A stretch of DNA of 39,798 bases from Clostridiaceae bacterium (GTDB lineage Bacteria; Bacillota; Clostridia; Saccharofermentanales; Saccharofermentanaceae): positions 1-39,798 of the forward strand of contig JAAYBI010000063.1 in assembly GCA_012718915.1 (NCBI GenBank), read 5' to 3'. The notes under the pieces are model-generated. The model made no database searches and was not told where the DNA came from. It saw only the letters and a program-made list of their open reading frames with translations. Shown piece by piece: positions 7,327 through 37,048 of the stretch. The position numbers and the translations under genes are program-made. How positions within the stretch are numbered: position 1 is the stretch's first letter; each line of letters opens with the position of its first letter.

Positions 7327-7415
7327 GGCCCTTGAACGATCAAGGGCGAGGATTAATTACGAAACCGCATCCTTTGCGGCACGAAAAAGAATATCACACC
7401 ACCATAGGCACGTCA
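7327..7415 (-). promoter_or_regulatory. rpsF promoter (TTGACG / TATTCT-like) plus a ~80-nt structured leader with two hairpins: GCCCTTGA-loop-TCAAGGGC at 7328-7347 just upstream of the RBS, and CCGCA-loop-TGCGG at 7365-7379
   Basis: Inverted repeats read directly from the sequence. Their position immediately 5' of the rpsF RBS matches the placement of the S6:S18 autoregulatory leader known in other bacteria. Confidence 0.35.
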
Positions 7416-7704
7416 AGTCAGCTGCTCTAAACCCCGGAGAATCACTGCGTAAATCCAGAAAATAAACTGCCGGCAAAATATTGTAGCGCTGATAAAATAC
7501 CTAAGTATGTTGTCAAGGTTCCCTGTGAATCAGCGATTAATCCGGGTGCACTCCATAACCATATCGCGCGACTCATCTTCTGAAACAATCATATGCCTTT
7601 TTGACGCTTACTTCTATATTATATAAACGAAATCAAGCTAAGAATAATCGACAATCCCTTCCAAACCGGACCAAGCGCTCTATCGAATATCCTATCTTTA
7701 TGGA

Positions 7705-9411
7705 CTATACAAACGAAACCGGCATAATTCCAAGATTATCCAAAATATACGGCATCAATGCACTCAATAAGTGTTCGAGCGTATCAGCCGTCTTAATATA
7801 CTCATCTAAGGAGGCTCCGAAAGGATCAGGAATACCCATGGGTGACTTCACAAGGTTGCGCAACATATCACTTGGAATATCTGCATTCTCGAAAAAAGAA
7901 AATATATCGTATGCACGATCGGCAATTTCAGGAAATGCTGCTCTCAAAAACATTGCGTGCTCACCGGTCATCGTCAAAATTAAATGCGTCGAACTCAAAA
8001 GCACCTCATCCACGCGCCGTGAGCGATGGCCGCTTATGTCTATGCCGTAAAGCTGCCGAAGTGCATCAACTGCATTCTGGGCGGCAGGACTTCCGAATGA
8101 AGCAAAGATACCTGCGGAAGAGGCGAACACTTGCACTTCCCGAGATGGATCGCTACATAATACAAATGGCCCCATTTCTTGTAATATCGCATTGAAAATC
8201 CCTTCAGCCATCGGACTGCGGCAGGTGTTCCCGGTGCAAACAAACAGAACCTGTCGACAATCCTCGTCCTCACTACCTTGTTCGAGCATACCTAATTTTG
8301 GGTCTAGATCTTTTTCCAGACCTGCGGCCTTTTCGAGTCGATTCATATAGGCAACGCCATATCCTTCACTTCCGAATCCGGGAGCAAATATTCGATCTGA
8401 GCCTGCATCATCAAGAGAGCGAAGAGCATCGTAAAGTTTTTGACCAGCCGAAAATACGTCATCCTCGGAACCATACTCATAATAAATGACTTGACCCTGA
8501 GCGACGTTTGCAAAACTTAATCTCAAGGCTTCACAAACCTCTCGAGATGCAAAAACACCCATTACCCCACCGGGACTTTCTTGTTGGAAAGAATGCATCG
8601 TTTGCTCATAGGCTTGCGACATCATTTCTTTGCCGGAATGAATGACCGTAACAGGCGACTTCGGCGCGTAATGCCTGTATTTTTGTCCCGGAGAACGAGG
8701 AACTTGTCCATTTTTTGAAACCGGATCAACGGAAACCTGTGCAAAAGACAATCCGAATTTTTTACACTCAGACAGAATCATTTCAGAGGTTATTGCGCCC
8801 GGTCTCAAAATCACCGGCCGATTGCCCGTAACATCAACAACAGTCGATTCAAGTCCGACATCACAATCACCGCCGTCAACAATGTACGAGATTCGGCCTC
8901 TCAAGTCTTTCAGGACATGTTGTGCTTTAGTCGGAGACGGACTGCCCGAACGATTGGCTGAAGGAGCTGCAATCGGAACACCCGCCATAGCGATGAGCTC
9001 GCGCGCGACAGGGTGAGCGGGTATTCTTATTCCAACCGTATCCAGACCGGCAGTCACCACGTCAGGAACTGAGCGGTTGCGTCGCATAACCAATGTAATC
9101 GGGCCGGGCATAAAAGCGTCCATCAAACATCGAGCCAGCGGTGTTATGTCGGAAACAAGCATTCGTATTTGGTCTTTCTCGGCGACATGAACGATGAGAG
9201 GATTATCGCTCGGCCGTCCTTTTGCCTTGAATATTTTGTCGATAGCATTTGTATCAAGCGCATTTGCCCCGAGCCCGTATACAGTCTCAGTGGGAAATGC
9301 AACCACCTCACCGCCACGAATCAACTCCGCAGGACGAACCAAGTCGTCCTGAGATCGATACAACGCAACTTCGGTGACAAAACCTCCTGTTTCGACGCCC
9401 TTGACTTCCAT
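7705..9411 (-). CDS. in-frame fusion: L-threonylcarbamoyladenylate synthase (Sua5/TsaC/YwlC, YrdC + Sua5 domains) joined to a YwlE-type low-molecular-weight phosphatase
   Basis: N-terminal half has YrdC motifs VAFPTETVYGLGANA and KGRPSDNPLIVHV. The C-terminal ~185 aa has P-loop VLFVCTGNTCRSPMAEG (C-X5-R with Thr after Asn, as in the B. subtilis arginine phosphatase YwlE) and a DPF general-acid loop. There is no stop between the halves. The likely real start is the ATG at 9411 (MEVKG); the ORF tool started at the GTG at 9438. Confidence 0.8.
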   Translation of the reverse strand: MEVKGVETGGFVTEVALYRSQDDLVRPAELIRGGEVVAFPTETVYGLGANALDTNAIDKIFKAKGRPSDNPLIVHVAEKDQIRMLVSDITPLARCLMDAFMPGPITLVMRRNRSVPDVVTAGLDTVGIRIPAHPVARELIAMAGVPIAAPSANRSGSPSPTKAQHVLKDLRGRISYIVDGGDCDVGLESTVVDVTGNRPVILRPGAITSEMILSECKKFGLSFAQVSVDPVSKNGQVPRSPGQKYRHYAPKSPVTVIHSGKEMMSQAYEQTMHSFQQESPGGVMGVFASREVCEALRLSFANVAQGQVIYYEYGSEDDVFSAGQKLYDALRSLDDAGSDRIFAPGFGSEGYGVAYMNRLEKAAGLEKDLDPKLGMLEQGSEDEDCRQVLFVCTGNTCRSPMAEGIFNAILQEMGPFVLCSDPSREVQVFASSAGIFASFGSPAAQNAVDALRQLYGIDISGHRSRRVDEVLLSSTHLILTMTGEHAMFLRAAFPEIADRAYDIFSFFENADIPSDMLRNLVKSPMGIPDPFGASLDEYIKTADTLEHLLSALMPYILDNLGIMPVSFV

Positions 9412-9415
9412 GCGG

Positions 9416-10504
9416 CTACTCGTCCTCCCCTGCGACACTCATTAACTGATCTGCTTTATCCGCCGAAGCTAATGCATCGATTATTTCATCGATATCTCCT
9501 GACAAAAATGCGTCAAGCTTGTATATTGTCATATTTATCCGATGATCCGATACTCTACCTTGATGGTAATTGTAGGTACGAATACGTTCGGAACGGTCGC
9601 CGGTTCCCACCTGGGACTTTCGAGCCATTGCTACTTCCCCGTGCGCTTCTGAATTCTTCATCTCCTGAAGACGGCTCATCAGGACCGCCATCGCCTTGTC
9701 CTTGTTCTTATATTGACTACGCTGATCCTGACATTGAACAACAATACCGGTTGGAATATGTGTGATTCTTATCGCAGAGTCGGTTCTGTTAACATGCTGA
9801 CCGCCGGCTCCGGATGCTCTAAACGTGTCAATGCGCAGGTCTCCCGGCTGTATGTCTACTTCCACGGCCTCTGCTTCCGGGAGAACGGCGACGGTAACCG
9901 TCGAAGTGTGAATCCTACCTGACGACTCAGTTACGGGTACCCGCTGTACGCGATGGACTCCTCTTTCATACTTGAATCGACTGAATGCTCCGTTTCCCTC
10001 AACCGAAAAAATGATCTCTTTGTAACCGCCAAGTTCAGTCGGACTGCTGTCAATTTGTTCTACCGTCCACCCTCGGCTCTGAGCATACGCCGAATACATT
10101 TCGAAAAGCACTCCACAGAAAAGAGCCGCCTCATCCCCACCGGCACCGGCTCTGATTTCGATGATGACCGATTTCTGATCGTTGGGATCCTTGGGCGCAG
10201 TCAATGCCCTGAGCCTTTCGTTTTCGGTCGTCAGAACGCTATTGAGTATTTTCAATTCTTCGCGAGCCATCTTACGCATTTCTTCATCGTCTGCTAATTC
10301 AAACATCTCTTGCGTCTGGTCTATTTCTGATTCAAGACGTTCCACTTCATGAATTGCTCCGACAATCGGCTCCAACTCTGCCAATTCTTTGTTGAGTTTC
10401 TGATAACGACTCGGGTCCGAAAAGACAGCCGGATCCGCCAGCGTAGCAATAATTTCATCGTATCGATGTCTGATGTCGTTTAACTTAGTATCAAGGAGAC
10501 TCAT
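9416..10504 (-). CDS. prfA: peptide chain release factor 1
   Basis: GGQ motif (SGAGGQHVNRTDSAIRITHIPTG). 362 aa. GTGAGGT RBS. Confidence 0.93.
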   Translation of the reverse strand: MSLLDTKLNDIRHRYDEIIATLADPAVFSDPSRYQKLNKELAELEPIVGAIHEVERLESEIDQTQEMFELADDEEMRKMAREELKILNSVLTTENERLRALTAPKDPNDQKSVIIEIRAGAGGDEAALFCGVLFEMYSAYAQSRGWTVEQIDSSPTELGGYKEIIFSVEGNGAFSRFKYERGVHRVQRVPVTESSGRIHTSTVTVAVLPEAEAVEVDIQPGDLRIDTFRASGAGGQHVNRTDSAIRITHIPTGIVVQCQDQRSQYKNKDKAMAVLMSRLQEMKNSEAHGEVAMARKSQVGTGDRSERIRTYNYHQGRVSDHRINMTIYKLDAFLSGDIDEIIDALASADKADQLMSVAGEDE

Positions 10505-10604: not shown

Positions 10605-10675
10605 AAACGCTGGTGTGAATTTAAGGTTGAAGGCGGTGCCGCCAGACACCGACTTTATTGAAAGGGGATACATAC

Positions 10676-11368
10676 ATGCAGAATACACACGAAGTAGAAC
10701 AAATGACTTGTATCGCAAGAGGACCGAACCACGGTCCGGCTCCAATCCCGGAAGAAGGCAAGTGGGTTCAGGCCCGCGAAATTAAGGACATTTCCGGCTT
10801 TACCCACGGCGTCGGCTGGTGTGCGCCTCAGCAAGGAACATGTAAGTTGTCTTTGAACATCAAAGACGGCGTGATTCAGGAGGCTTTGGTTGAGACCATC
10901 GGTTGTACCGGAATGACTCATTCAGCCGCAATGGCCGGTGAGATTCTCCCGGGCAAAACCATTCTTGAAGCACTGAATACGGACCTTGTTTGCGATGCGA
11001 TCAACACAGCAATGCGCGAACTCTTCCTTCAGATTGTTTACGGCCGTTCCCAGTCCTCATTTTCTGAAGGCGGTCTTCCGATCGGCTCTTCTCTTGAGGA
11101 TCTCGGAAAGGGGCTTCGCTCTACAACAGCGACCATCTTCTCTACCGTTGAGAAAGGCCCTCGCTATCTTGAGTTAACAGAAGGATACATTACGTCATTA
11201 GCTCTGGACAAGGACAATCAGATCATCGGCTATCAATTTTTGAAGCTTGGGCCGATGCTTGAGCAGATCAAAAAAGGTACGGATGCCAACGAAGCCTATC
11301 AGAAGAATCTCGGAACTTACGGTCGTTATGCAGACGCTGTCCGCTATATCGATCCGAGACACGAATAA
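10676..11368 (+). CDS. IscU/NifU-N-like three-cysteine Fe-S scaffold-domain protein with ~100-aa C-terminal extension (function unknown)
   Basis: Core GWCAPQQGTCKLSLNIKDGVIQEALVETIGCTGMTHSAAMAGEILPGKTILEALNTDLVCDAI aligns to IscU GAPACGD...GCGSAIASSS...HC, and the three Cys are conserved. Real start is the ATG at 10676 after AAAGGGGA. The tool used the TTG at 10658. Confidence 0.65.
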   Translation: MQNTHEVEQMTCIARGPNHGPAPIPEEGKWVQAREIKDISGFTHGVGWCAPQQGTCKLSLNIKDGVIQEALVETIGCTGMTHSAAMAGEILPGKTILEALNTDLVCDAINTAMRELFLQIVYGRSQSSFSEGGLPIGSSLEDLGKGLRSTTATIFSTVEKGPRYLELTEGYITSLALDKDNQIIGYQFLKLGPMLEQIKKGTDANEAYQKNLGTYGRYADAVRYIDPRHE

Positions 11369-11386
11369 GTGTGGGAGGAGAATAAT

Positions 11387-12382
11387 ATGCCACTTTTTGA
11401 AAGTTACGACAGAAGAATTGCGCAGATTAATGCCGCGTTGAACGCTCACGGAATTGCATCCATAGAGGAAGCAAAAGCCATCTGCGATGCTAAGGGGATT
11501 GACCCCTACACCATCACCAAGGAAACCCAACCCATTGCTTTTGAGAACGCGTGCTGGGCATACGTCGTCGGCGCTGCAATCGCAATCAAGAAGGGGATTA
11601 AAGTTGCCTCTGAAGCAGCTGAAGCCATTGGTATCGGCCTTCAGGCTTTCTGTATCCCGGGTTCTGTTGCAGACGACCGCAAGGTTGGTATCGGACATGG
11701 CAATCTTGCCGCCATGCTTCTTCGCGAAGAAACCAAATGTTTCGCATTCGTTGCCGGCCATGAGTCTTTTGCAGCAGCAGAAGGCGCAATCAAAATTGCA
11801 CAATCCGCCAACCAGGTTCGTACTGAACCGCTTCGGGTTATCTTGAACGGATTAGGCAAGGATGCCGCATTCATTATCTCAAGAATCAACGGTTTTACTT
11901 ATGTAAAGACTCAGTTTGATTACGCGTCAGGTAAGGTTGCGGTGGTCAGCGAGACCGCTTATTCCGAAGGCGACCGCGCGAAGGTCCGTTGCTACGGCTC
12001 GGACGATGTGCGTGAAGGCGTTGCCATCATGCACCTCGAGGGCGTTGATGTTTCCATCACAGGCAACTCGACAAATCCGACCCGCTTCCAGCACCCCGTT
12101 GCAGGAACATATAAAAAAGAATGCACTGAATTGGGTAAGAAGTACTTCTCTGTTGCTTCCGGCGGCGGTACCGGTCGTACTCTGCACCCGGACAATATGG
12201 CTGCAGGCCCTGCCTCTTACGGCATGACAGATACAATGGGACGCATGCACTCTGATGCCCAGTTCGCAGGTTCCTCCTCCGTTCCGGCGCATGTTGAGAT
12301 GATGGGCTTCCTTGGTATGGGTAACAACCCGATGGTCGGTGCGACCGTTGCGGTTGCAGTTGCAGTAGAGCAAGCCGGCTAA
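11387..12382 (+). CDS. GGGtGRT-motif family protein (Pfam GGGtGRT, unknown function)
   Basis: Contains SGGGTGRTLHPDNMAAGPASYGMTD. About 330 aa, typical of the family. RBS GGGAGGAG 8 nt before ATG MPLFESYD. Translationally coupled to the upstream gene (18-nt gap). Confidence 0.7.
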   Translation: MPLFESYDRRIAQINAALNAHGIASIEEAKAICDAKGIDPYTITKETQPIAFENACWAYVVGAAIAIKKGIKVASEAAEAIGIGLQAFCIPGSVADDRKVGIGHGNLAAMLLREETKCFAFVAGHESFAAAEGAIKIAQSANQVRTEPLRVILNGLGKDAAFIISRINGFTYVKTQFDYASGKVAVVSETAYSEGDRAKVRCYGSDDVREGVAIMHLEGVDVSITGNSTNPTRFQHPVAGTYKKECTELGKKYFSVASGGGTGRTLHPDNMAAGPASYGMTDTMGRMHSDAQFAGSSSVPAHVEMMGFLGMGNNPMVGATVAVAVAVEQAG

Positions 12383-12474: not shown

Positions 12475-13104
12475 CTACTTGCCAATAGCATCCATTATTT
12501 TTTGTGCCATCATGACACGAACTCGCGCCTCAAGAGAAAGCCTTAGCGCAATATCCGCCATCATACGACGCCGGTCTTTCGCCGGAACGCTACCCTCTTG
12601 AGATGATCTCTTGAGCGGCTCAAGCTCGTTAAGCACTTGAAGACGGGCATCTTTAAAAGCTTCTTCTTGAATTTGAAGATAAAGCTCGTACAACTCCTGC
12701 TCCGTGCTACCTTGAAGTGCCGCATCCGTCAAAGTCCCCAAATCCGAAATAGATACCACAGGTTTCAGCGCGCATACCAATGAAATCAGAGCCAGATGGT
12801 CCGGCGTATACTTTTTGTCAATCGGACGCGGAAGCACGCCATCCTTCGTGTAATTATTTATCATTGCCTTGGTCAGAATCTTGTCATCTTCAGATCGTTT
12901 ATAAAAATTCAATTGCCGATCCATAAGTGTTAAGACCTGATCCATGTATAGACCGATGTCCGGAAGTTTCTCCCAATCCAACAATGCGGTATGATCCAGC
13001 TCTCTGAGCCAATTTTCAATATCGCTGACGCGTTCATCCGACACAAGAATATTCTTCCTGGGCGACTGAATATTTTGAATCACAGGTGTATCATTCTTTG
13101 GCAT
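12475..13104 (-). CDS. DUF1836 family protein (MerR-like HTH-related, unknown function)
   Basis: Motif ILTKAMINNYTKDGVLPRPIDKKYTPDHLALISLVCALKPVVSISDL is typical of DUF1836. GGAGG RBS. Confidence 0.5.
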   Translation of the reverse strand: MPKNDTPVIQNIQSPRKNILVSDERVSDIENWLRELDHTALLDWEKLPDIGLYMDQVLTLMDRQLNFYKRSEDDKILTKAMINNYTKDGVLPRPIDKKYTPDHLALISLVCALKPVVSISDLGTLTDAALQGSTEQELYELYLQIQEEAFKDARLQVLNELEPLKRSSQEGSVPAKDRRRMMADIALRLSLEARVRVMMAQKIMDAIGK

Positions 13105-13449: not shown

Positions 13450-14409
13450 CTATGAACGAGTTTCTTGATAACGACCCAGTGTGACGCGGTCATTTCCACC
13501 GAAATCTTTTAGACAAGTCACGTTCAAAAATCCTGCGTTTGTCATCAATTCCGAGATGGATTCTCTCTGGTCGAAGCCATGTTCAAAGGCAAGTATACCA
13601 TTATTCGAAAGATACTTAGGCACCTGCTCGAGTATTCTCCGATATAGCTGAAGTCCGTCTCTTCCTCCTTTGAGAGCAAGCTCAGGTTCATGAATTCGAA
13701 CTTCCGGCATAGCACCTTCGAATGCCGCATCTGAAATATAGGGCGGATTAGATACGATGAAGTTTGCCTTGCCGTATGTTTTGAGGAAATACTCTTCTTC
13801 AGGAAACAAGTCACACATTTCAAGCACGATTTGGTCTGGCTCTGAGGCTTCTTTTATGTTCCGTTTCGCATAGCTTGCAGCCTCTTCAGATATCTCAGTC
13901 AACACCATTTTATAAGATAGTATATACCGACTGAGAATATTGGCAATCGATATCCCGATACAACCGCTTCCGGTGCATAGATCCATGACAACGAGATGAT
14001 CGATTTTTGAGTCGACTTTAAGTGAAGTCAGATCTTCGTATCTTCCGGCGAGAAAACTATCGTCTATTCCCAACGAATAAAGCGAGGCTCCTACGAGTAT
14101 TTCACTGTCGGGTCGCGGAACGAGCACTCCCGGACCGACAAAAAAACGATCCCGATAAAAAAATACCTCACCCAAAAGATATGCTAAAGGCTCACGCCTT
14201 ATTCGACCGGACAAAATCTTTTCAAAGCGAAGCAAGACATCCTCCGATAAAGCCTCGGATACTTCGATTTCTTTGTCAAAATAAATATTGGATCGAGCTT
14301 TTTCATTTAGGACAGACAAAATATAAATCAACTCATCTTCGGGATAATCAATGCCCGCAGACTCGAGCCGCTTCACTTGCTCCGTTTTCCAATCGAACCA
14401 CTTCACCAC
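13450..14409 (-). CDS. prmC: release factor glutamine N5-methyltransferase PrmC/HemK
   Basis: SAM-binding DLCTGSGCIG and catalytic NPPY (FIVSNPPYI). Confidence 0.9.
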   Translation of the reverse strand: MVKWFDWKTEQVKRLESAGIDYPEDELIYILSVLNEKARSNIYFDKEIEVSEALSEDVLLRFEKILSGRIRREPLAYLLGEVFFYRDRFFVGPGVLVPRPDSEILVGASLYSLGIDDSFLAGRYEDLTSLKVDSKIDHLVVMDLCTGSGCIGISIANILSRYILSYKMVLTEISEEAASYAKRNIKEASEPDQIVLEMCDLFPEEEYFLKTYGKANFIVSNPPYISDAAFEGAMPEVRIHEPELALKGGRDGLQLYRRILEQVPKYLSNNGILAFEHGFDQRESISELMTNAGFLNVTCLKDFGGNDRVTLGRYQETRS

Positions 14410-15626
14410 CGGTCTTCCTCTGCATTCTCAGGCAAGACCGCCTGCATAGCAGCAATGGCGACCTCGAGCATCCGATCATCAGGCTCTCGAGTCGTAAACC
14501 TCTGTAACCACAAACCGGGCTTTGAAATCATTCGACCCACCAGTGAATCTTCATGTCGTCCGGCCAAACGCAATACTTCATAAGAAATACCGCCGACCAG
14601 AGGCACCAAAGCTAGGCGAACCAGAAGATTAATCCACCAGATGTTAACCCCTAACCACTTGATTAGGAATACACTGGCAACGCTAAAAACAAGAATCGAA
14701 ATAACGACAACAATAAACATAAATGCGGTACCACAACGGGGATGTGCTTTAGTGTGTTTTCGAATATTCTCCACAGTGAGAGGTTCCCCGGCTTCGTAGC
14801 AAGCAATTGTCTTGTGTTCTGCACCATGATACATCCATACTCTGGCAATATCCTTGATCTTCGAAGTAAGTATCAAATATGTCAAAAATATAACGATTCG
14901 CAAAATGCCCTCGATAACATTCATTCCGACGGCAATACCAATATTATCAGCACGATCCGGATTGAATATGCCCTCAATGATATCGACGATGAGGCGAGGC
15001 AACAAGATGAACAAGAGGACGCTGAACAAAATGCCAAGGATCGCTGAAATAACAATCATCACATTGACATGACGATCCAAAAACTGGTCCAGTCGGCTTT
15101 TAGGCTTCTTCTCCGGCTTTATGCTATCGCTCGAAATCGGCGTCTGAGCCGCCAGTCGAGCCGCATCCGCTTGGTCAGTATCTACAATTTGGTCCGGCTG
15201 ATCCGGAAAAATATCAGAGACTTCCGGAGCAGCGCCCATCTCTTTCATTTCGGATAACTCCGGAGCGACATGTTCCACGTCGACAGCCTCCGGTTCCTCT
15301 TTGTCCGCATCAATATCCGATATCTCAGCAGATTTCATCAGCGCGCCGGTCCCGGTCACAATCTGCCTGAAAAACCGAATGCTTCCACGAATAAATGGGA
15401 CCTTATCGAAAAATATAATCTTACGGTCTTGCTTGACCTCTTCGACATAAATCGAACCATCCGGTTTACGTATTGCCATAGCAATTTTCGTCGGACCGAA
15501 CATCATTAAGCCTTCAATTAGTGCCTGCCCTCCGATTGTTGTCTTCTTGCTCGACGGACAGAACGAGGATGTATTACGCGACACATCCTTCTCTATATTA
15601 TTTGGCTTTGCCACATCTTTATCCAT
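14403..15626 (-). CDS. DUF1385 family membrane protein (YqhQ-like) with an ~80-aa acidic low-complexity insertion
   Basis: GGQALIEGLMMFG and HGAEHK motifs. Three or four TM helices. Insertion DIDADKEEPEAVDVEH...KPEKKPK between the soluble N-domain and the TM region. Overlaps the prmC start by 7 nt. Confidence 0.6.
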   Translation of the reverse strand: MDKDVAKPNNIEKDVSRNTSSFCPSSKKTTIGGQALIEGLMMFGPTKIAMAIRKPDGSIYVEEVKQDRKIIFFDKVPFIRGSIRFFRQIVTGTGALMKSAEISDIDADKEEPEAVDVEHVAPELSEMKEMGAAPEVSDIFPDQPDQIVDTDQADAARLAAQTPISSDSIKPEKKPKSRLDQFLDRHVNVMIVISAILGILFSVLLFILLPRLIVDIIEGIFNPDRADNIGIAVGMNVIEGILRIVIFLTYLILTSKIKDIARVWMYHGAEHKTIACYEAGEPLTVENIRKHTKAHPRCGTAFMFIVVVISILVFSVASVFLIKWLGVNIWWINLLVRLALVPLVGGISYEVLRLAGRHEDSLVGRMISKPGLWLQRFTTREPDDRMLEVAIAAMQAVLPENAEEDRW

Positions 15627-15747: not shown

Positions 15748-16956
15748 TCATTTAATCGAAGTCACTATTTCCGGAAATGGCGCTATCGCGCGATCTAATA
15801 TGCCATTTGCATATGCAATAAATACACCGTAATTGGTAATCGGGATTTGACGTTGAGTCGAAAGCGTCGTTCGATAATGCATTTCTTTTTCGTTGAGCAT
15901 ACAGCCACCACAATGAATAATCATGTCGTAAATATCAATTCGTTTGGGGAAGGTCGATCCTGATGCCCACTCGAGTTGAATACCCTCACTCGCAACCATT
16001 TTTATCCACTTCGGAATCTTTACAGTTGCGATATCATCCATTTGCTTATGATGTGTACATGCTTCCACAATCAATACACGGCTCCCTTGCTTCAGGTTTT
16101 TTATTTGTCGAACGCCTGATACCATTTCTTTTAAATTCGACTTCTGCCTGGCAAATAGTATCGAAAATGAGGTTAACGGAACCTCGGCAGAAATTCGTTG
16201 CTCGACATACCCAAAAGCTTGGGAATCTGTAATGACAATATTCGGAGGATTCTTAAGCTTAGAAATGACGCGTTCGAGCTCGGTTTCACGAGTCACGACG
16301 GGAATCGCTCCAATGTCCAGAATATCTCTGATGGTTTGTTGCTGAGGCAAAATCAGCCTGCCTTTAGGAGCAGCCGAATCTATTGGTGTAACTAAGACCG
16401 CCGTATCGTATGGTCTTAAAACCCCACTTATCAGCGACGGTGATTCGGCTTGACGACCGGACGACTCGATAATTCGTTGTTTTAGTTTTGATATGCCTTC
16501 GATATTTTTCGCGCTAACAAACACAGGGGAAAAAAGCATGGTAATATCATCGACCTGGAAGCCGGTATCCGATTTATTCACGACAACAGAAAAGGGGACT
16601 TTCCGTTCCCGAATTTCGTCAATTAGCGACTGTTCTAAGGTCGTAATGCCTTTCTCATCTGTTACCACTAAAACATAATCCGTCCGCCTTAGTACTTCTC
16701 TAGATTTTTCTACTCGCATTGTTCCAAGTTCGCCGTCATCGTCGAGTCCGGCGGTATCAACAAAGACTACCGGTCCGATCGGCAACATCTCCATCGCCTT
16801 GGAAACAGGATCTGTCGTCGTGCCCGCCACATCTGATACAACGGACGCGCTCTGCCCCGTAAGCGCATTTACAAGTGAAGACTTTCCGACATTTCTTCTT
16901 CCGAATATGCCGATGACAAACCTCTTGGAAATCGGGGTTGCATTTATATCTTGCAT
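15748..16956 (-). CDS. hydF: [FeFe]-hydrogenase maturation GTPase HydF
   Basis: G1 GRRNVGKSS, G4 NKSD. C-terminal Fe-S ligands CTHH...HCGGC. Confidence 0.85.
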   Translation of the reverse strand: MQDINATPISKRFVIGIFGRRNVGKSSLVNALTGQSASVVSDVAGTTTDPVSKAMEMLPIGPVVFVDTAGLDDDGELGTMRVEKSREVLRRTDYVLVVTDEKGITTLEQSLIDEIRERKVPFSVVVNKSDTGFQVDDITMLFSPVFVSAKNIEGISKLKQRIIESSGRQAESPSLISGVLRPYDTAVLVTPIDSAAPKGRLILPQQQTIRDILDIGAIPVVTRETELERVISKLKNPPNIVITDSQAFGYVEQRISAEVPLTSFSILFARQKSNLKEMVSGVRQIKNLKQGSRVLIVEACTHHKQMDDIATVKIPKWIKMVASEGIQLEWASGSTFPKRIDIYDMIIHCGGCMLNEKEMHYRTTLSTQRQIPITNYGVFIAYANGILDRAIAPFPEIVTSIK

Positions 16957-16992
16957 ATCTAACCTTTCTTCACGCAGTAGTAGACTATGTTT

Positions 16993-18081
16993 TCAATCTG
17001 ATTTTCGCTCTCGAAAATCGAAATGATCCCCGCGAGACATTTCCGCACTTAACCCTAGATCGTGAATCTGATTTATCAGAAACCTGACGTTCTCCGCTGC
17101 TTCCGTCGACGATGACAGTTTTCCGTCATATATGGCATAGGCGTCTCGATATTTCTGCGGAGTCAGGCACGGCATCACAACATTTGCACCCGCGCGAAAT
17201 GCATCTGCTCGATGCTGAATGTCACATGAGGCCAGTGCTGTCGTGGCCGGGAGCATCACATTGGGAAGCATTATTCGGCACAACGCCGTCAAAACCAAAG
17301 TATGATCGACTGAACCATAAGGAAATTTCGCGAACCTCGTATTGATATGGGGACGAAACGGACCTAATCCAATCATGTGCGGAGAGAGCTCCCTTAAGAA
17401 CAGAAAGTCTTCCGTCAATGTATCAACACTTTGATAAGGAGATCCGACCATCAATCCGGCACCAACCTGATATCCAATCCGTTTCATCGTCTCAAGGCTC
17501 TTCCGGCGTATTGAGAAGTGCTGATTGGCATCGTGTAGTTTTGAAAAATGTTCTTCATCAGCGGTCTCATGCCTTAAAAGAAATCGGTCCGCCCCGGCTT
17601 GATAAAGTTGTAAATACTGTTCCGAATTCAGAACACCAACACTTAGAGTCAATGCGATATCCGAAAATAAACTTTTGATACTGAACACGAGCTCGGAAAG
17701 ACGGCCGGCCAAATAGTACGGATCTTCTCCGCTTTGCAAGACAAAGCTTCGAAATCCCATAGCATACCCGTTACGGATAACTTGAACGATCTCTTGTTCT
17801 GTCATCCGATAACGAACCGCCTTCCTGTTCCGCACTGAAAGACCACAATAGAAGCAGTCGTTTCGACAAAAACTACTAAACTCAATCAAACCGCGCAGAA
17901 AAACTCTGGGACCGTCATTTGAGTCGCGCACTCGCCTCGCCATAGAATAAAGATCTTCTTTATCCTCATTTGTCGACATATTCAGGTAGAAATCAATCAG
18001 ATCTTTCATCTCACTTCTATCTGCACCTAACAACAAGGCCTCATTCGGAACATCTTTATTTTTCATAAGGTTTACCCTCAA
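16993..18081 (-). CDS. hydE: [FeFe]-hydrogenase maturation radical-SAM protein HydE
   Basis: CRNDCFYCGL radical SAM motif. BioB-like. About 350 aa. Confidence 0.8.
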   Translation of the reverse strand: MRVNLMKNKDVPNEALLLGADRSEMKDLIDFYLNMSTNEDKEDLYSMARRVRDSNDGPRVFLRGLIEFSSFCRNDCFYCGLSVRNRKAVRYRMTEQEIVQVIRNGYAMGFRSFVLQSGEDPYYLAGRLSELVFSIKSLFSDIALTLSVGVLNSEQYLQLYQAGADRFLLRHETADEEHFSKLHDANQHFSIRRKSLETMKRIGYQVGAGLMVGSPYQSVDTLTEDFLFLRELSPHMIGLGPFRPHINTRFAKFPYGSVDHTLVLTALCRIMLPNVMLPATTALASCDIQHRADAFRAGANVVMPCLTPQKYRDAYAIYDGKLSSSTEAAENVRFLINQIHDLGLSAEMSRGDHFDFRERKSD

Positions 18082-18083
18082 AA

Positions 18084-19535
18084 TCAGAATCGAAGATCGC
18101 GCTCTCCCTTTTCAATTCGACGGATCATCGCCTGAGTCTTCTCAAAGGCATCTCCTTTCAGATTATTTAGATGCTCTGCAAGAACACGTTCGCCCTCCAA
18201 TCGGGTCTCATCTGTCGCATAATCAAGAAGATACTCCTTGAAAGTCAAAACTGCATTTGGAATACAGTAATTGTGTACGAATTTCGATTTTGCGACCTTC
18301 ATGAAATGCTCTCCGGTCCGGCCTGCGCGATAACAAGCCGTGCAAAATGACGGAATATTTCCCATTTCACAAATCTGACCTACAACATCATCGAGAGAAC
18401 GTGAATCTCCGATAGTGAATTGCTCTTTGTCCGGCAACATATTTGCATGTTTTGCGTGTGAGTAAGCACCCACACCAATTCTCGTCCCTGCATCTATCTG
18501 CGAGACACCCAGAGGAATAACTGACTCTCTGACCTGAGCCGATTCTCGTGCAGTGCAAATCAACCCGGTATAAGGCACCGACAGACGCAGAATCGCAATT
18601 ATGCGTTTGAAATCATCATCGTTGACAGCATAATCCGGATTGAGAGAAAATGGAGTATCCGTCGCCGGAGTAATCCTCGGAAAAGAAATGGTATGCGGAC
18701 CAACACCGTTAAAATGCTTTTCGAGGTGCATCGTATGCATCAATAGAGCCATCAATTCAAACCGCCAATCATATAAACCAAAAAGCACGCCCAGTCCACA
18801 GTCATCAAGACCCGCCTTGAGCGCACGATCCATGGCATACAGTCTCCAACGATAGTGCCCTTTAATTGTTCCTTGTGGATGAACGCTTTCGTAAGTCTTT
18901 CTGTGGTATGTCTCTTGGAAGACCTGGAAGGTTCCGATGCCGACTTCCTTCAGTTTTTTTAGTTCGTCGATCGCCAACGGAGCACAATTAATATTCGCTC
19001 GTCGAATTTCACCGTTTTCCGTCTTGACTTCATAAACTTTCCGAACTGATTCACACATGAAATCCACGTTAGTCTTCGGAGATTCCCCATAGACCAGTAC
19101 CGTTCGTTTTTGCCCCTCATCAATCATTATTTGAACTTCTTCTTCAATTTCCTGCATATTCAATGTCTTACGATGAATTGCGACATTACTGCTCCGAAAA
19201 CCGCAATACTTACAATTATTCGCACACTCATCGCTGATATAGAGCGGCGCAAAAAATACAATTCGATCACCATATACTTCCTTCTTGAGTTCGAATGCCA
19301 CTCCAAACATCTCTTGAATGGTGTCCGGATCGTTATTACCGATTAGAATTGCCATTTCATCCAAATCTAATCTTATGCAATTTCGTGATTTCTCCAGGAC
19401 TCGGCGCACCTCATCACGTCCGGGATTTTTATTAGCATCTAGTAGTGAATGGATTAACTCCTCATCAATAAAATCTTTCTCCATGGCATCCAATACATCG
19501 AACTCATCTTGATATTTGTTTAAATAACGCATCAC
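18084..19535 (-). CDS. hydG: [FeFe]-hydrogenase maturation radical-SAM protein HydG
   Basis: CANNCKYCGF radical SAM motif. ThiH-like with C-terminal CTACYR...C cluster motif. 483 aa. Confidence 0.85.
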   Translation of the reverse strand: MMRYLNKYQDEFDVLDAMEKDFIDEELIHSLLDANKNPGRDEVRRVLEKSRNCIRLDLDEMAILIGNNDPDTIQEMFGVAFELKKEVYGDRIVFFAPLYISDECANNCKYCGFRSSNVAIHRKTLNMQEIEEEVQIMIDEGQKRTVLVYGESPKTNVDFMCESVRKVYEVKTENGEIRRANINCAPLAIDELKKLKEVGIGTFQVFQETYHRKTYESVHPQGTIKGHYRWRLYAMDRALKAGLDDCGLGVLFGLYDWRFELMALLMHTMHLEKHFNGVGPHTISFPRITPATDTPFSLNPDYAVNDDDFKRIIAILRLSVPYTGLICTARESAQVRESVIPLGVSQIDAGTRIGVGAYSHAKHANMLPDKEQFTIGDSRSLDDVVGQICEMGNIPSFCTACYRAGRTGEHFMKVAKSKFVHNYCIPNAVLTFKEYLLDYATDETRLEGERVLAEHLNNLKGDAFEKTQAMIRRIEKGERDLRF

Positions 19536-20484: not shown

Positions 20485-21954
20485 TCAGTTGTCTGTGGTC
20501 ATGTCTATCTTTTTCGGCGGCCTAAGTCTTTGTGCTTGAGAATATCGATTTTCCGGTTCAGACTGAAGATTATTAACATTCGGGTTAAGCTCTTCAGCCG
20601 CTTTAGACTCTAAAGCCTTAGCTATGGAAGAAGACGGCATAACCTTTGCGATTATCGGAACTACAAGCGGAGCGATCAATGATTTGATCCTCAGAAATAA
20701 TAATGTAATCGAATGAACCAATTTCTCTAACTGTTCACCTACAAATACTATTGCTATTTTCGTAAGCGATTCCTTTTCTTGCTTCTCTCTACGTTTATTG
20801 ATCGAATTATAAACACTAACAGCTACTGCTAATAATATGAGCCAAAAGAAAAACACCCAACTCTTGTCTTTGGCAGGCGAGATACTTGATTCGATTCCTA
20901 AAGATCCGAGACCATCTCCACCTCCAGCTCCGGAATCGTTGATTATACCCATAACAGCCGGGTCATTGTCGTCATTATCGGAATCAGAGGATTTAGAAGA
21001 TTGCGACGACACGCCCGATTCCGAACCATTCATTTGAAACGTTGATGTATCTTCGAAATGATCAGTCCCATCAACATCGGCTCCCGAATCCTGTTCTGCG
21101 GAGTCAGGAAAAGACTCGTTGGTAACCGGAGAAGAAGGATTTGTCATTGTCGGTTGAGTTTCATCGGTATTATCCTCTGTATCAGATACAGGAGTTGTTG
21201 TCGGTATTACAGGCTCCGAACTCTCTTTTGGAACCGAAGTAGATTCCGGCACTGTCGGCTCCGCAACAGGCTGAATAACAACCGGTGTCGGCTGAGCAGT
21301 GGGCAGAACGGTAGGTGCCGATGTAGCCACAGGAGTCGGTATAGGGGATGGAATAGACGTCGGTATTGTCGTTGGTATTGTCGTCGGCGTCGGTGATGGC
21401 GTCGGTGATGGCGTCGGCGTTGACTTAGGCGTTGGTGGTGGTGGCGGTGGTGGCGGTGGTGGCGGTGGTGGCGTAGACTTAGGCGTTGGTGTTGGAGTCG
21501 GCGTTGATACATTTCGATCTGCGCTTGCCGATTTAACCTTAACGCTGTTCCCAGTCGGAGACGTCGTCACCAGCTGAAATCCGATGCTATCATCATGCGC
21601 CCCCGATGAAATCGTCGAATTATAGCCACAAGGAGTGACAATCAATTTTCCGGAAGAATCGATTAGAAATGAGCCATTCCAGCTGCTCTGAATGGAAGCG
21701 TCGGAAGGCACAGAAATCTCAACCTTCCAATTGATGATGTCAAAAGTATTGCTATTAGTTATTTTGAGCGCGTACTGTGTAACCTGTTTCCCATCGCTAT
21801 CCCAACTATTTACCTTGGTCAGGGAAGTGCCGATAGACTCGCTGGCTTCTATCGGCATACGAAAAGAGAAAGCCATAAGAATAGCCGCTATAACAATTAT
21901 CAATAAGCGTTTAGTTATAGAACCAGACTGATATGCCACACATTTCCCATTCAT
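20485..21954 (-). CDS. type-I membrane-anchored surface protein: signal peptide, CBM2-like carbohydrate-binding domain, Pro/Thr linker with Pro14, acidic/Ser-rich segment, one TM helix, ~110-aa cytoplasmic tail
   Basis: Segment VNSWDSDGKQVTQYALKITNSNTFDIINWKVEISVP...SSWNGS...GFQLVTTSPTG follows the CBM2 pattern W..G...V.NT....W...F.....WN....G....GF. TM helix WVFFFWLILLAVAVSVYNSI is followed by NKRREKQEK. No catalytic domain. No LPXTG. Confidence 0.55.
   Translation of the reverse strand: MNGKCVAYQSGSITKRLLIIVIAAILMAFSFRMPIEASESIGTSLTKVNSWDSDGKQVTQYALKITNSNTFDIINWKVEISVPSDASIQSSWNGSFLIDSSGKLIVTPCGYNSTISSGAHDDSIGFQLVTTSPTGNSVKVKSASADRNVSTPTPTPTPKSTPPPPPPPPPPPPPTPKSTPTPSPTPSPTPTTIPTTIPTSIPSPIPTPVATSAPTVLPTAQPTPVVIQPVAEPTVPESTSVPKESSEPVIPTTTPVSDTEDNTDETQPTMTNPSSPVTNESFPDSAEQDSGADVDGTDHFEDTSTFQMNGSESGVSSQSSKSSDSDNDDNDPAVMGIINDSGAGGGDGLGSLGIESSISPAKDKSWVFFFWLILLAVAVSVYNSINKRREKQEKESLTKIAIVFVGEQLEKLVHSITLLFLRIKSLIAPLVVPIIAKVMPSSSIAKALESKAAEELNPNVNNLQSEPENRYSQAQRLRPPKKIDMTTDN
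21300..21500. repeat. coding tandem repeats: (GGTGGTGGC)n 9-bp units plus two copies of GACTTAGGCGTTGGTG, encoding the Pro14/PT linker on the opposite strand
   Basis: Repeat units directly visible at 21431-21475. Flanking GTCGGTGATGGC repeats are also present. Confidence 0.8.
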
Positions 21955-32143: not shown

Positions 32144-32219
32144 GCCGATTTAGCTCAGTTGGTAGAGCAGCTGATTTGTAATCAGCAGGTCGTCAGTTCG
32201 AGTCTGACAATCGGCTCCA
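32144..32219 (+). tRNA. tRNA-Thr (anticodon UGU), CCA encoded
   Basis: Cloverleaf: acceptor GCCGATT/AATCGGC, D-arm GCTC...GAGC, anticodon stem GCTGA/TCAGC with loop TTTGTAA, T-arm GTCAG TTCGAGT CTGAC, discriminator T, CCA. Confidence 0.85.
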
Positions 32220-36296: not shown

Positions 36297-36854
36297 CTAT
36301 TTCCGAAGATCTTCCAACAATTTTTCGGCCTGCAGCCTAATGAGTATTGATCTGTCTGCCAGAATGATGATTTTCAGTGAAGCAGATAAACGATGTTTTG
36401 CTCCGGGGATGATCTCAACATAGTGTTGTGTTACTTCGTTTATGCATTGATCAAGCATTTCATCATCAACCTGGACGCCTGAAGCACATCGATTAACCAG
36501 CAGACAGATGTACTCATATAGCTGCGACTCCGGTATGATGTCATCCGAGCTGTCATACACAGATCCGTTAACATACGACAGAAGAAACGCAATTTGCTCT
36601 AACTGAAAAGCAGCTCGAAGCATATTTATAATCAGAATTCTGGCGACCTGATCAATATTGTATCCTCTGTTGACCGGCGGACTGACCCATCCTCGCTTGA
36701 CCCAGTTTTGAAGCGCCGAAGCATCTAGTCCCGTCATTTCACGAATCTGTGACAACTTCATACTCGACGTTGCGGCAAAAATACCATTCAAAAAACCCAC
36801 ACCGGGTATATTCTGTTCTCTTCTTGCCGGTATTGTCGTGCCCGGAATTGTCAT
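36297..36854 (-). CDS. second DUF1836-like / MerR-like HTH protein
   Basis: MTGLDASALQNWVKRGWVSPPVNRGYNIDQVARILIINMLRAAFQLEQI parallels the DUF1836 motif of the 12475-13104 gene and a MerR-type HTH. Real start is the ATG at 36854 after AAGGAGGT. Confidence 0.4.
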   Translation of the reverse strand: MTIPGTTIPARREQNIPGVGFLNGIFAATSSMKLSQIREMTGLDASALQNWVKRGWVSPPVNRGYNIDQVARILIINMLRAAFQLEQIAFLLSYVNGSVYDSSDDIIPESQLYEYICLLVNRCASGVQVDDEMLDQCINEVTQHYVEIIPGAKHRLSASLKIIILADRSILIRLQAEKLLEDLRK

Positions 36855-37048
36855 AATGTACCTCCTTTCGAACTTCATGGTCATATATTACCATGCGTTC
36901 ACATGAACGTCAATAGCATTCTTGAGAACTTTTTTTGTAATCCGTTGAACTCGCACCCGGTTCCTTTGAACCTTATCCCCTAATCACAAATTGTAAAAAA
37001 TTTTGAGAGGCGCAAACATAGCGCCTCTCAATAAAATCGGTAATACGC

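What the first reader, a model, noticed from the sequence alone, without database searches (positions are those of the whole stretch)
7705..9411. Single-polypeptide fusion of Sua5/TsaC (t6A tRNA modification) with a YwlE-type arginine/tyrosine phosphatase
In B. subtilis, ywlC (sua5) and ywlE (the protein-arginine phosphatase) are separate genes in the same prfA-prmC-ywl operon. Here they are one 568-aa reading frame with a short acidic linker and no intervening stop. The phosphatase P-loop is CTGNTCRS. The Thr after Asn is the residue reported to confer phospho-arginine specificity in YwlE. A covalent link between the TC-AMP synthase and a pArg/pTyr phosphatase implies functional coupling of translation-factor/tRNA modification with stress phospho-signalling, or a Rosetta-stone clue to why these genes are syntenic.
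Basis: partly seen in the sequence, partly recalled or inferred. Interest (0 to 1): 0.55.

Follow-up and report, generated by a model that had tools for sequence, protein, structure and literature searches.

The report
Sua5–YwlE-type phosphatase fusion protein
One gene here really does join the enzyme that makes the precursor of the universal tRNA modification t6A to a phospho-arginine-type protein phosphatase, but the fusion is common in uncultured Clostridia, so it is a useful clue to why the two genes travel together and not a rarity.

Summary
Window 7705-9411 (minus strand) is one 568-aa ORF. It carries YrdC, Sua5_C and LMW-phosphatase domains, all above Pfam cutoffs, joined by a 23-residue acidic, disordered linker. 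It starts 4 nt after the prfA stop.

It is not an artefact. The identical protein and DNA occur on contigs from many independent assemblies. An 82%-identical orthologue keeps the frame although synonymous sites are saturated.

The phosphatase half is YwlE-type. It has the P-loop CTGNTCRS (Cys392, Thr396, Arg398) and Asp529-Pro530. Its best solved relatives are 4EGS and YwlE.

The architecture is widespread. All 120 best homologues have it, and so do 68 of the best 150 representatives of 50%-identity clusters. Fused proteins fall in at least 16 Sua5 sequence clusters interleaved with split forms. 136 of 137 intact P-loops have the pArg-specifying Thr.

About a quarter of the fused proteins, including true orthologues, have a dead but well-conserved phosphatase-like domain. 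That argues for a physical partnership with Sua5 beyond catalysis.

Published B. subtilis work shows that YwlE protects the t6A transferase TsaD from pArg-directed ClpCP degradation, which gives a plausible rationale. mcsB could not be checked. I found no paper describing the fusion.

Verdict: moderately interesting, a new variant of known kinds.

The parts
7705..9411 (-). Whole fusion ORF, 568 aa plus stop: Sua5/TsaC2 joined to a YwlE-type LMW phosphatase
   Evidence: ORF; domains; identical protein called on independent contigs.
8797..9327 (-). YrdC-like catalytic domain (aa 29-205). It contains the KGRP motif (K64, R66) and the SAN motif (S151, N153).
   Evidence: PF01300 at 211 bits. These residues are invariant in 56 fused homologues. 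Foldseek matches P. abyssi Sua5 and T. maritima TsaC2.
8320..8793 (-). Sua5 interdomain loop with the PGxKYRHYAP motif (aa 241-250) and the Sua5 C-terminal domain (aa 207-364)
   Evidence: PF03481 at 94 bits. P241, G242, K244, Y245, R246, H247, Y248, A249 and P250 are invariant. The top structural hit, 6F89, is the H234A/Y235A mutant of this motif in P. abyssi Sua5.
8251..8319 (-). Acidic flexible linker (aa 365-387)
   Evidence: pLDDT is below 50 for aa 366-382. It is only 43% identical to the 82%-identical orthologue, with pN 0.36. Mean pairwise identity across the family is 0.16.
7753..8250 (-). LMW-PTP-fold phosphatase domain of YwlE type (aa 388-553)
   Evidence: PF01451 at 73 bits. PDB sequence matches: 4EGS 1e-26, YwlE 4KK3 1.5e-18, YfkJ only 1.5e-8. 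TM-score is 0.93 to 4EGS and 0.87-0.90 to YwlE. pN 0.146 against pS 0.72 indicates purifying selection.
8215..8238 (-). P-loop C392-T-G-N-T396-C397-R398-S399. It holds the nucleophile Cys, the pArg-specifying Thr, the redox partner Cys and the phosphate-binding Arg.
   Evidence: Read from the sequence. The alignment to YwlE equates these with Cys7, Thr11, Cys12 and Arg13.
7822..7827 (-). D529-P530 general-acid motif, equivalent to YwlE Asp118
   Evidence: Alignments. DP is present in 133 of 137 fused proteins with an intact P-loop.
8140..8172 (-). Clade-specific insertion 1 (aa 414-424, GP[FY]xxxxxP loop after helix 1), absent from YwlE and 4EGS
   Evidence: P415 is nearly invariant.
7834..7878 (-). 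Clade-specific insertion 2 (about aa 512-526) just before the DP loop. The model places a short helix at aa 514-520.
7708..7752 (-). Conserved C-terminal tail (FPxILxDLG-like, aa 554-568), specific to this fusion clade
9423..9430 (-). Shine-Dalgarno GGGGAGGA lying inside the last codons of prfA. The prfA stop (TAG, 9416-9418) is 4 nt before the ATG, which implies translational coupling.
   Evidence: Read. Overlapping or abutting prfA and fusion genes are also seen in homologues.
9416..10504 (-). prfA (peptide chain release factor 1), the upstream operon partner
   Evidence: PCRF and RF-1 domains.
13450..14409 (-). prmC (RF methyltransferase), with the DUF1385 gene at 14403-15626. It is the remnant of the canonical prmC-prfA-sua5 cluster, separated from prfA by an inserted block.
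   Evidence: The same order is seen.

Best explanation
The ORF encodes a genuine bifunctional protein.

N-terminal 364 residues. This half is a complete Sua5/TsaC2 L-threonylcarbamoyl-adenylate synthase. It condenses threonine, bicarbonate/CO2 and ATP into TC-AMP, the donor that TsaD (with TsaB and TsaE) uses to make t6A37 on ANN-reading tRNAs.

C-terminal 181 residues. This half is a YwlE-type low-molecular-weight phosphatase with every catalytic residue in place: the Cys392 nucleophile, Arg398, the Asp529 general acid, the Cys397 redox partner and Thr396. Thr396 is the residue that in YwlE and PtpB directs activity towards phospho-arginine and away from phospho-tyrosine.

How the halves are joined and expressed. 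They are joined by a disordered acidic tether of about 20 residues. The protein is made by translational coupling to release factor 1.

Origin. The fusion arose by loss of the boundary between two genes that are adjacent in most Bacillota (sua5/ywlC and ywlE). It has been fixed in a large clade of uncultured Clostridia.

Inferred step, not shown. The tether keeps the phosphatase domain stoichiometric with Sua5 and next to it, and therefore next to the TsaBDE machinery that Sua5 must visit to deliver the labile TC-AMP. There it would remove McsB-type arginine phosphorylation, which in B. subtilis marks TsaD for ClpCP degradation, or more generally dock on the t6A/translation machinery. In many orthologues the domain has lost catalysis but stays conserved. 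This suggests that the physical partnership itself, and not only the phosphatase chemistry, is selected.

The confidence of 0.55 covers the whole statement including the inferred coupling. I put the architecture and the two domain assignments alone at about 0.95.
For: Architecture. Not an artefact: (identical DNA in six independent contigs; the frame is kept in an 82%-identical orthologue with pS about 0.7).

Sua5 motifs are invariant, and the structural matches are Sua5/TsaC2.

Phosphatase subtype: YwlE-type by sequence and by fold. 136 of 137 intact fused P-loops have Thr at PX5, and 133 have DP.

Purifying selection acts on each domain (dN/dS about 0.03, 0.04 and 0.07), while the linker is almost unconstrained. 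The linker is predicted disordered.

Tight prfA coupling is conserved.

Association between sua5 and the phosphatase gene is strong and recurrent. Of 80 reference loci, 8 are fused, 21 have the phosphatase gene within 150 nt, and 13 have it within 8 kb. Of the 150 best representatives at 50% identity, 68 are fused. Fused proteins occupy at least 16 Sua5 clusters.

Orthologues with a dead P-loop keep a domain as conserved as their Sua5_C domain (0.55 against 0.56 mean identity), in the same syntenic position.

Literature link: TsaD is phosphorylated on Arg282 and degraded by ClpCP, and YwlE stabilises it (PMC7546277).
Against: AlphaFold gives no confident interdomain arrangement (pTM 0.58), so there is no structural evidence for a fixed interface or for channelling.

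No mcsB (ATP:guanido phosphotransferase) or clpC was found in the 39.8-kb window, in 10 kb beyond ftsH, or around three homologues. Whether this organism makes pArg at all is therefore unknown.

Sua5 also fuses with unrelated partners: CoaE, rhodanese and a cation-efflux protein, and HemK in M. genitalium. Fusion of operon neighbours can be selectively neutral.

The TsaD-YwlE link is from B. subtilis only.

No enzymatic activity was tested.
Confidence: 0.55

Rival explanations
1. Neutral operon-neighbour fusion. Loss of a stop codon or short spacer joined two co-transcribed genes. Both domains keep their separate ancestral jobs (t6A precursor synthesis, and general pArg or pTyr dephosphorylation). 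The covalent link has no mechanistic meaning beyond co-expression.
For: In many genomes the two genes abut or overlap, so a fusion needs only one small mutation. The linker is disordered and unconstrained. pTM is low. Sua5 is also fused to CoaE, rhodanese and a cation-efflux protein and to HemK.
Against: The fusion persists across a deep clade, down to 39% identity. It recurs in at least 16 Sua5 clusters. Clade-specific insertions and a conserved C-terminal tail accompany it. Catalytically dead but conserved phosphatase-like domains are retained both in fused orthologues and in adjacent genes, which is hard to explain if the domain's only value were a general phosphatase activity.
Confidence: 0.3
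2. The C-terminal domain works mainly as a non-catalytic module, for example a docking or phospho-ligand-binding domain that regulates Sua5 or recruits it to partners. Its phosphatase chemistry is secondary or vestigial even in this 'active-looking' protein.
For: 47 of 184 fused proteins have degenerate P-loops but a conserved domain, and P0115 is shown to be syntenic. The insertions and the tail are shared by the active and the dead classes.
Against: In the window protein and in 136 other fused proteins the complete catalytic set is strictly kept: Cys, Thr (Ile in one), Cys, Arg and Ser/Thr, with Asp-Pro in 133 of them. This implies selection for catalysis in this class. dN/dS is about 0.07.
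Confidence: 0.1
3. The phosphatase domain is a phosphotyrosine phosphatase, an arsenate reductase or a small-molecule phosphatase, and not a pArg phosphatase.
For: The Pfam family is named for pTyr phosphatases. There are weak sub-threshold hits to Wzb and ArsC models. No mcsB was found locally.
Against: Thr and not Ile sits at PX5. YwlE-type structures are far better matches than YfkJ, Wzb or ArsC. The ArsC models score 36 bits against cutoffs of 174-215 bits, and the Wzb models 34-41 bits against cutoffs of 243-247 bits.
Confidence: 0.04
4. Assembly or sequencing artefact, or a pseudogene: a lost stop or a frameshift falsely joins two genes.
For: None found.
Against: Identical DNA occurs in six independent contigs from JGI, ENA and Logan, and the protein is indexed in 43 blocks. 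Hundreds of homologues share the same architecture. Purifying selection acts across the junction-flanking domains.
Confidence: 0.01

Closest known systems
Sua5 / TsaC2 threonylcarbamoyl-AMP synthase (P. abyssi Sua5 6F87/6F89; T. maritima TsaC2 9D3H; B. subtilis YwlC)
   Same: It has a YrdC domain plus a Sua5 C-terminal domain. The KxR, SxN and loop HY motifs are invariant. TIGR00057 is above its cutoff. The genomic link to prfA/prmC is kept.
   Different: It carries an extra 200-residue C-terminal extension (linker plus LMW phosphatase domain) that the characterised enzymes lack.
YwlE (B. subtilis, G. stearothermophilus) and PtpB (S. aureus), the protein arginine phosphatases; also T. tengcongensis LMW-PTP 4EGS
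   Same: It has the LMW-PTP fold and the P-loop CTGNTCRS, including the pArg-specifying Thr and the second Cys. It has the DP general acid. The stretch VLFVCTGNTCRSPMAEGIFNA is identical to 4EGS.
   Different: It is not a stand-alone protein of about 150 aa. It has two insertions (aa 414-424 and about 512-526) and a conserved C-terminal tail. Activity and substrate were not tested, and the presence of a kinase partner (McsB) is unknown.
Other fusions in the t6A pathway: TsaC/HemK in M. genitalium MG259, Kae1-Bud32 in Archaea, TobZ and HypF (YrdC-Kae1), Pandoravirus TsaN (TsaD-TsaC-SUA5-TcdA, 8IDE)
   Same: A t6A enzyme is joined to a genomic neighbour or pathway partner, giving a Rosetta-stone type of clue.
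   Different: In those cases the partner is another enzyme of t6A, translation or carbamoylation. Here the partner is a protein phosphatase of the stress and proteolysis signalling system. I found no description of this combination in the literature.
McsB/YwlE control of TsaD stability in B. subtilis (Ogura et al. 2020, PMC7546277)
   Same: It links the same two functional systems, t6A synthesis and pArg removal by YwlE.
   Different: In B. subtilis the link is in trans, through TsaD Arg282 and ClpCP. No covalent or physical Sua5-YwlE link has been reported, and none is shown here either.

Membership tests
Sua5/TsaC2 (L-threonylcarbamoyladenylate synthase, type 2) | YrdC-like domain and Sua5 C-terminal domain both present above curated thresholds | tested here: met
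   PF01300 scores 211 bits against 25, PF03481 scores 94 against 23, and the TIGR00057 equivalog scores 216 against 123.
Sua5/TsaC2 (L-threonylcarbamoyladenylate synthase, type 2) | ATP/threonine-binding motifs (KxR, SxN) and the interdomain-loop HY motif | tested here: met
   K64, R66, S151, N153, H247 and Y248 are present and invariant in 56 homologues. The best fold matches are Sua5/TsaC2 crystal structures.
Sua5/TsaC2 (L-threonylcarbamoyladenylate synthase, type 2) | TC-AMP synthase activity, or complementation of a sua5/tsaC mutant | not testable with these tools
   This needs biochemistry or genetics.
YwlE-type protein arginine phosphatase (LMW-PTP superfamily) | LMW-PTP fold with a C-x5-R-(S/T) P-loop and the D-P general acid | tested here: met
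   PF01451 scores 73 bits against 23. The P-loop CTGNTCRS is at aa 392-399 and D529-P530 is present. TM-score is 0.93 to 4EGS and 0.87-0.90 to YwlE.
YwlE-type protein arginine phosphatase (LMW-PTP superfamily) | Thr (not Ile) at P-loop position PX5, the pArg-versus-pTyr selectivity determinant | tested here: met
   Thr396 is present. 136 of 137 intact fused homologues also have Thr. The role of the residue is documented.
YwlE-type protein arginine phosphatase (LMW-PTP superfamily) | Closer to YwlE than to the pTyr (YfkJ, Wzb, PtpA) or ArsC branches | tested here: met
   phmmer against the PDB gives 4EGS 1e-26, YwlE 1.5e-18, YfkJ 1.5e-8, ArsC 1e-7 and Wzb 1e-6.
YwlE-type protein arginine phosphatase (LMW-PTP superfamily) | Cognate arginine kinase McsB (with ClpC and CtsR) encoded in the same genome | not testable with these tools
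   None was found in the 39.8-kb window, in 10 kb of extra flank, or near three homologues. The rest of the genome is not available.
YwlE-type protein arginine phosphatase (LMW-PTP superfamily) | Measured pArg phosphatase activity | not testable with these tools
   This needs an enzyme assay.
Thioredoxin-coupled arsenate reductase (ArsC, pI258 type) | Match to the curated ArsC equivalog models above their cutoffs | tested here: not met
   TIGR02691 scores 36 bits against 174, and NF010053 scores 36 against 215. The matches cover only the first 100 residues or so.
Family of Sua5-LMWPc single-chain fusions (database architecture PF01300+PF03481+PF01451) | All three domains in one ORF, shared with orthologues in the same syntenic position | tested here: met
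   The 120 best homologues all have the architecture. 68 of the 150 representatives are fused. Synteny is conserved.

The most novel reading that the evidence does not exclude
The YwlE-like domain is a dedicated physical partner of Sua5 and the t6A machinery. In its active form it locally erases arginine phosphorylation, for example on TsaD, and so shields t6A synthesis from McsB/ClpCP-directed degradation. In many lineages it has evolved into a catalytically dead but conserved pseudo-phosphatase that acts purely as a docking or regulatory subunit. This would explain the long-standing ywlC-ywlE synteny across Bacillota. It would also reveal a direct regulatory link between tRNA t6A modification and pArg-based protein quality control.
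Probability: 0.25. Interest if true: 0.6.

Novelty: new variant of a known kind. Interest (0 to 1): 0.38.

Why it matters
Both halves are well-understood enzymes, so nothing categorically new is encoded here.

The value lies in the Rosetta-stone argument. The fusion is frequent and recurrent, and fused proteins with an intact P-loop are almost exclusively of the pArg (Thr) subtype. It persists even after the phosphatase loses its catalytic residues. Together with the B. subtilis finding that YwlE protects TsaD from pArg/ClpCP degradation, this gives a concrete, testable reason why sua5 and ywlE are syntenic throughout Bacillota. It also suggests that t6A synthesis is wired to arginine-phosphorylation-based proteostasis.

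There is a practical point too. Current names for these proteins ('threonylcarbamoyl-AMP synthase') ignore the phosphatase half. The dead-P-loop class is an unannotated bacterial pseudo-phosphatase family.

Tried and rejected
1. Sequencing or assembly artefact. Rejected: identical DNA on independent contigs.

2. A rare or unique architecture. Rejected.

3. A fixed interdomain interface predicted by AlphaFold. Not obtained: pTM 0.58 and a disordered linker.

4. Search for mcsB and clpC. Pfam scans of essentially all window ORFs of 100 aa or more found none. Neither did the Pfam tables for 10 kb beyond ftsH or for three homologous loci.

5. Literature on the fusion. Six full-text searches and three targeted readings (the t6A review, the TsaN paper and El Yacoubi 2009) found nothing. 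An absence in this library does not prove that the fusion has never been noted, and domain-architecture databases clearly already hold it.

6. A Biopython neighbour-joining tree of 344 Sua5 domains timed out. It was replaced by a p-distance UPGMA and nearest-neighbour analysis, which is only a rough proxy for phylogeny.

7. Rfam scan of the window. It found only one tRNA. Nothing turned up in the 360-nt spacer between the fusion and rpsF.

8. The terminator and promoter scans gave nothing above background around the gene.

9. dN/dS values are approximate because synonymous sites are saturated (pS about 0.7).
Full report
**1. Observation**

An uninterrupted ORF lies on the minus strand from 9411 (ATG) to 7705 (stop). 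It encodes 568 aa. A possible GTG start at 9438 would overlap prfA by 23 nt. Gene callers on independent contigs use the ATG. A GGGGAGGA Shine-Dalgarno sits at 9423-9430, inside the last prfA codons, and the prfA TAG stop (9416-9418) lies 4 nt before the ATG.

Pfam finds three domains, all far above their gathering scores:
- PF01300 Sua5_yciO_yrdC, aa 29-205, 211 bits.
- PF03481 Sua5_C, aa 207-364, 94 bits.
- PF01451 LMWPc, aa 388-553, 73 bits.

The NCBIfam equivalog TIGR00057 (L-threonylcarbamoyladenylate synthase) scores 216 bits against a cutoff of 123. The ArsC and Wzb models stay far below their cutoffs.

The 23-residue linker LEKDLDPKLGMLEQGSEDEDCRQ is acidic. The P-loop CTGNTCRS occupies aa 392-399, which is nt 8215-8238. 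It lacked only the strand.

**2. Not an artefact**

The exact 568-aa protein is indexed in 43 blocks of public assemblies. Twenty-three contigs were read. The six fetched, from JGI, ENA and Logan samples, carry a gene with zero nucleotide differences from the window and the same gene order.

An 82%-identical orthologue (P0002, locus L089) aligns without gaps. Its synonymous sites are saturated (pS about 0.70-0.72), yet the frame is intact. Non-synonymous change is low:
- pN 0.063 in the YrdC domain.
- pN 0.087 in Sua5_C.
- pN 0.146 in the phosphatase domain.
- pN 0.36 in the linker, which is only 43% identical.

Approximate dN/dS values are 0.03, 0.04 and 0.07, compared with 0.027 for prfA. 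Both halves are under purifying selection, and the linker is nearly free to vary.

**3. What each half is**

The N-terminal half has every hallmark of Sua5/TsaC2. K64 and R66 (KGRP), S151 and N153 (SAN) and the interdomain loop PGxKYRHYAP are invariant among 56 fused homologues. The AlphaFold model has mean pLDDT 86.7. Its best matches are P. abyssi Sua5 (6F89, E 4e-37), T. maritima TsaC2 and S. tokodaii Sua5.

The C-terminal half was compared with the PDB by sequence:
- T. tengcongensis LMW-PTP 4EGS, 1e-26. The stretch VLFVCTGNTCRSPMAEGIFNA is identical.
- B. subtilis YwlE, 1.5e-18.
- Geobacillus YwlE, 8e-14.
- YfkJ, 1.5e-8, with ArsC and Wzb weaker still.

By fold, the TM-score is 0.93 to 4EGS and 0.87-0.90 to YwlE. 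Cys392, Thr396, Cys397, Arg398 and Asp529 align with YwlE Cys7, Thr11, Cys12, Arg13 and Asp118.

The literature confirms that the residue at this P-loop position steers selectivity, with Thr favouring pArg and Ile favouring pTyr. It also confirms that Asp118 and Thr11 recognise the guanidinium group while Cys7 attacks the phosphate (citing Fuhrmann et al. 2013).

Relative to YwlE and 4EGS, the domain has two insertions (aa 414-424 and about aa 512-526) and a conserved C-terminal tail.

**4. How common the fusion is**

- All 120 best hits in the 5.8-billion-protein collection, from 83% down to 39% identity, carry the same three Pfam domains. Where a source names them, they are called only 'threonylcarbamoyl-AMP synthase', from Clostridiales or Saccharofermentanales MAGs.
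- In the exhaustive search of 1.84 billion representatives of 50%-identity clusters, 68 of the best 150 are fused.
- Among 80 loci from GTDB species genomes, 8 are true single-ORF fusions. These include Ca. Fermentithermobacillus carboniphilus and Ructibacterium. A further 21 have the phosphatase gene within 150 nt, often overlapping or one codon after the sua5 stop. Thirteen have it within 8 kb, which is the Bacillaceae ywlC...ywlE pattern. The rest show no phosphatase gene nearby.
- Fused proteins fall into at least 16 Sua5-domain clusters interleaved with split or solo forms. Fusions outside the window's clade lack its insertions. Fusion, or fission, has therefore happened repeatedly.
- The window belongs to one large clade with 90 active-type fused members, 43 degenerate-type fused members and 10 solo members. 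In this clade prfA overlaps the start of the fusion, and rpsF-ssb-rpsR-rplI-dnaB-tilS-hpt-ftsH follows.

**5. Active and dead phosphatase domains**

Of 184 fused proteins (the window plus 183 retrieved), 137 have an intact C-x5-R-(S/T) loop. Of those, 136 have Thr at the selectivity position, 1 has Ile, and 133 keep DP. The window protein is in this class.

The other 47 have degenerate loops such as CDDNKRLS, SDDDRNLG or GDRNTARS, so the Arg and often the Cys are lost. Their Sua5 motifs remain invariant. One of them, P0115, sits in the same syntenic slot, so it is an orthologue.

Their phosphatase-like domain is as conserved among themselves as their Sua5_C domain (mean identity 0.55 against 0.56, with the linker at 0.35). 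Sixty-five columns are at least 85% conserved.

Degenerate loops also occur in separate, adjacent genes of Lachnospiraceae, Roseburia and Eubacterium MAGs. A catalytically dead but constrained domain that stays attached or adjacent to Sua5 is the strongest hint that the association is physical and functional, and not merely a matter of co-expression.

**6. Mechanism**

Shown:
- The domain identities, the intact catalytic sets and the purifying selection.
- The arrangement that implies translational coupling to prfA.
- The recurrence of the fusion.
- The flexible linker: pLDDT is below 50 for aa 366-382, and pTM of 0.58 means there is no confident relative orientation.

Established knowledge: Sua5 makes TC-AMP, which TsaD (with TsaB and TsaE) transfers to A37. 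YwlE reverses McsB arginine phosphorylation, which tags proteins for ClpCP. In B. subtilis, TsaD is phosphorylated on Arg282 and degraded through McsB/ClpCP, and YwlE stabilises it (PMC7546277).

Inferred: tethering a YwlE-type domain to Sua5 keeps the phosphatase stoichiometric with the t6A machinery and close to it. There it can protect the machinery, or act as a docking subunit in lineages where catalysis has been lost.

Against this inference:
- No interface is predicted.
- No mcsB was found in about 50 kb around the gene or near homologues. This says little about the whole genome.
- Sua5 is also found fused to CoaE (4 representatives), rhodanese (2), a cation-efflux protein (1) and HemK. 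A neutral neighbour fusion therefore remains a serious rival.

**7. Comparison with what is known, and novelty**

Each half is a clear member of a known family: Sua5/TsaC2 and the YwlE-type branch of the LMW-PTPs. Fusions inside the t6A pathway are known, namely TsaC/HemK, Kae1-Bud32, TobZ, HypF and TsaN.

I found no paper describing a Sua5-phosphatase fusion or the dead-loop variants. The architecture is nevertheless already present in public databases with precomputed domain hits. From memory, and unverified here, domain-architecture resources list it.

I therefore rate it a new variant of known kinds. It is an uncharacterised but widespread architecture and is not surprising in itself. Its interest is moderate because it provides a testable link between t6A synthesis and pArg signalling.

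**8. Verdict**

Interest is 0.38.

Noticed in passing
Homologues P0077, P0080, P0089, P0096-P0120; locus L091:10001-11758 (P0115); L011:4044-5582; L033:7917-9497: About a quarter of the Sua5-LMWPc fusion proteins have lost the catalytic Arg, and often the Cys, of the P-loop (for example CDDNKRLS and SDDDRNLG). They still keep a well-conserved phosphatase-like domain (mean identity 0.55). P0115 at least sits in the same syntenic position. This looks like an undescribed bacterial pseudo-phosphatase class tied to Sua5.
   Followed up: partly
L014:9060-9551, L048:2287-2832, L054:8974-9465, L057:9045-9509, L069:1790-2299, L077:8900-9520: In Lachnospiraceae, Roseburia and Eubacterium MAGs, the separate LMW-phosphatase-like gene directly after sua5 also has a degenerate P-loop (FVAENGTCRA, FVTDSDTSLG, FICMDNTSGS and others). 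The dead-domain association therefore also exists without a fusion.
   Followed up: partly
Proteins P0059, P0063, P0066, P0069, P0071: Some fused homologues (681-771 aa) carry an additional N-terminal extension of 150-250 residues with no Pfam match.
   Followed up: partly
Proteins P0227, P0256, P0257, P0263 (CoaE); P0221, P0246 (rhodanese); P0207 (cation efflux); L063:6876-9614 (913-aa ORF with Sua5 in the middle): Sua5 is a promiscuous fusion partner. Other single-chain combinations exist, with dephospho-CoA kinase, with a rhodanese domain and with a CDF transporter.
   Followed up: partly
window 10658-12382 (+): A gene pair on the opposite strand is wedged between the prmC/DUF1836 block and prfA. 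It consists of a 236-aa protein with only a faint NifU_N hit, followed by a GGGtGRT protein (PF14057, 642 bits). The same pair occurs in a 49%-identical relative's locus (L093). Its function is unknown.
   Followed up: no
window 15748-19535 (-): An [FeFe]-hydrogenase maturase cluster lies next to the DUF1385-prmC genes: HydF, plus two radical-SAM proteins, one with a BATS domain, consistent with HydE and HydG. This indicates an anaerobic hydrogen-metabolising Clostridia-like organism. A CBM2-containing protein at 20485-21954 suggests polysaccharide degradation.
   Followed up: no
window 23163-25373 (-): The Rho termination factor is unusually long at 736 aa. Its RNA-binding domain starts only at residue 344, which implies an N-terminal extension of about 340 residues with no Pfam match.
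   Followed up: no
window 12475-13104 (-) and 36297-36884 (-): There are two DUF1836 paralogues. The second is combined with a MerR-type HTH. The first sits inside the prmC-prfA cluster, and this placement is conserved in relatives (L081, L089, L093).
   Followed up: no
window 7344-7704: The 360-nt spacer between the fusion gene and rpsF has no Rfam match and no convincing terminator. A weak terminator-like and promoter-like site lies at 7388-7416. It may hold the rpsF operon promoter or leader.
   Followed up: partly
window 32144-32216 (+): A single tRNA gene (Rfam RF00005, 74.6 bits). It is the only Rfam hit in the window.
   Followed up: no
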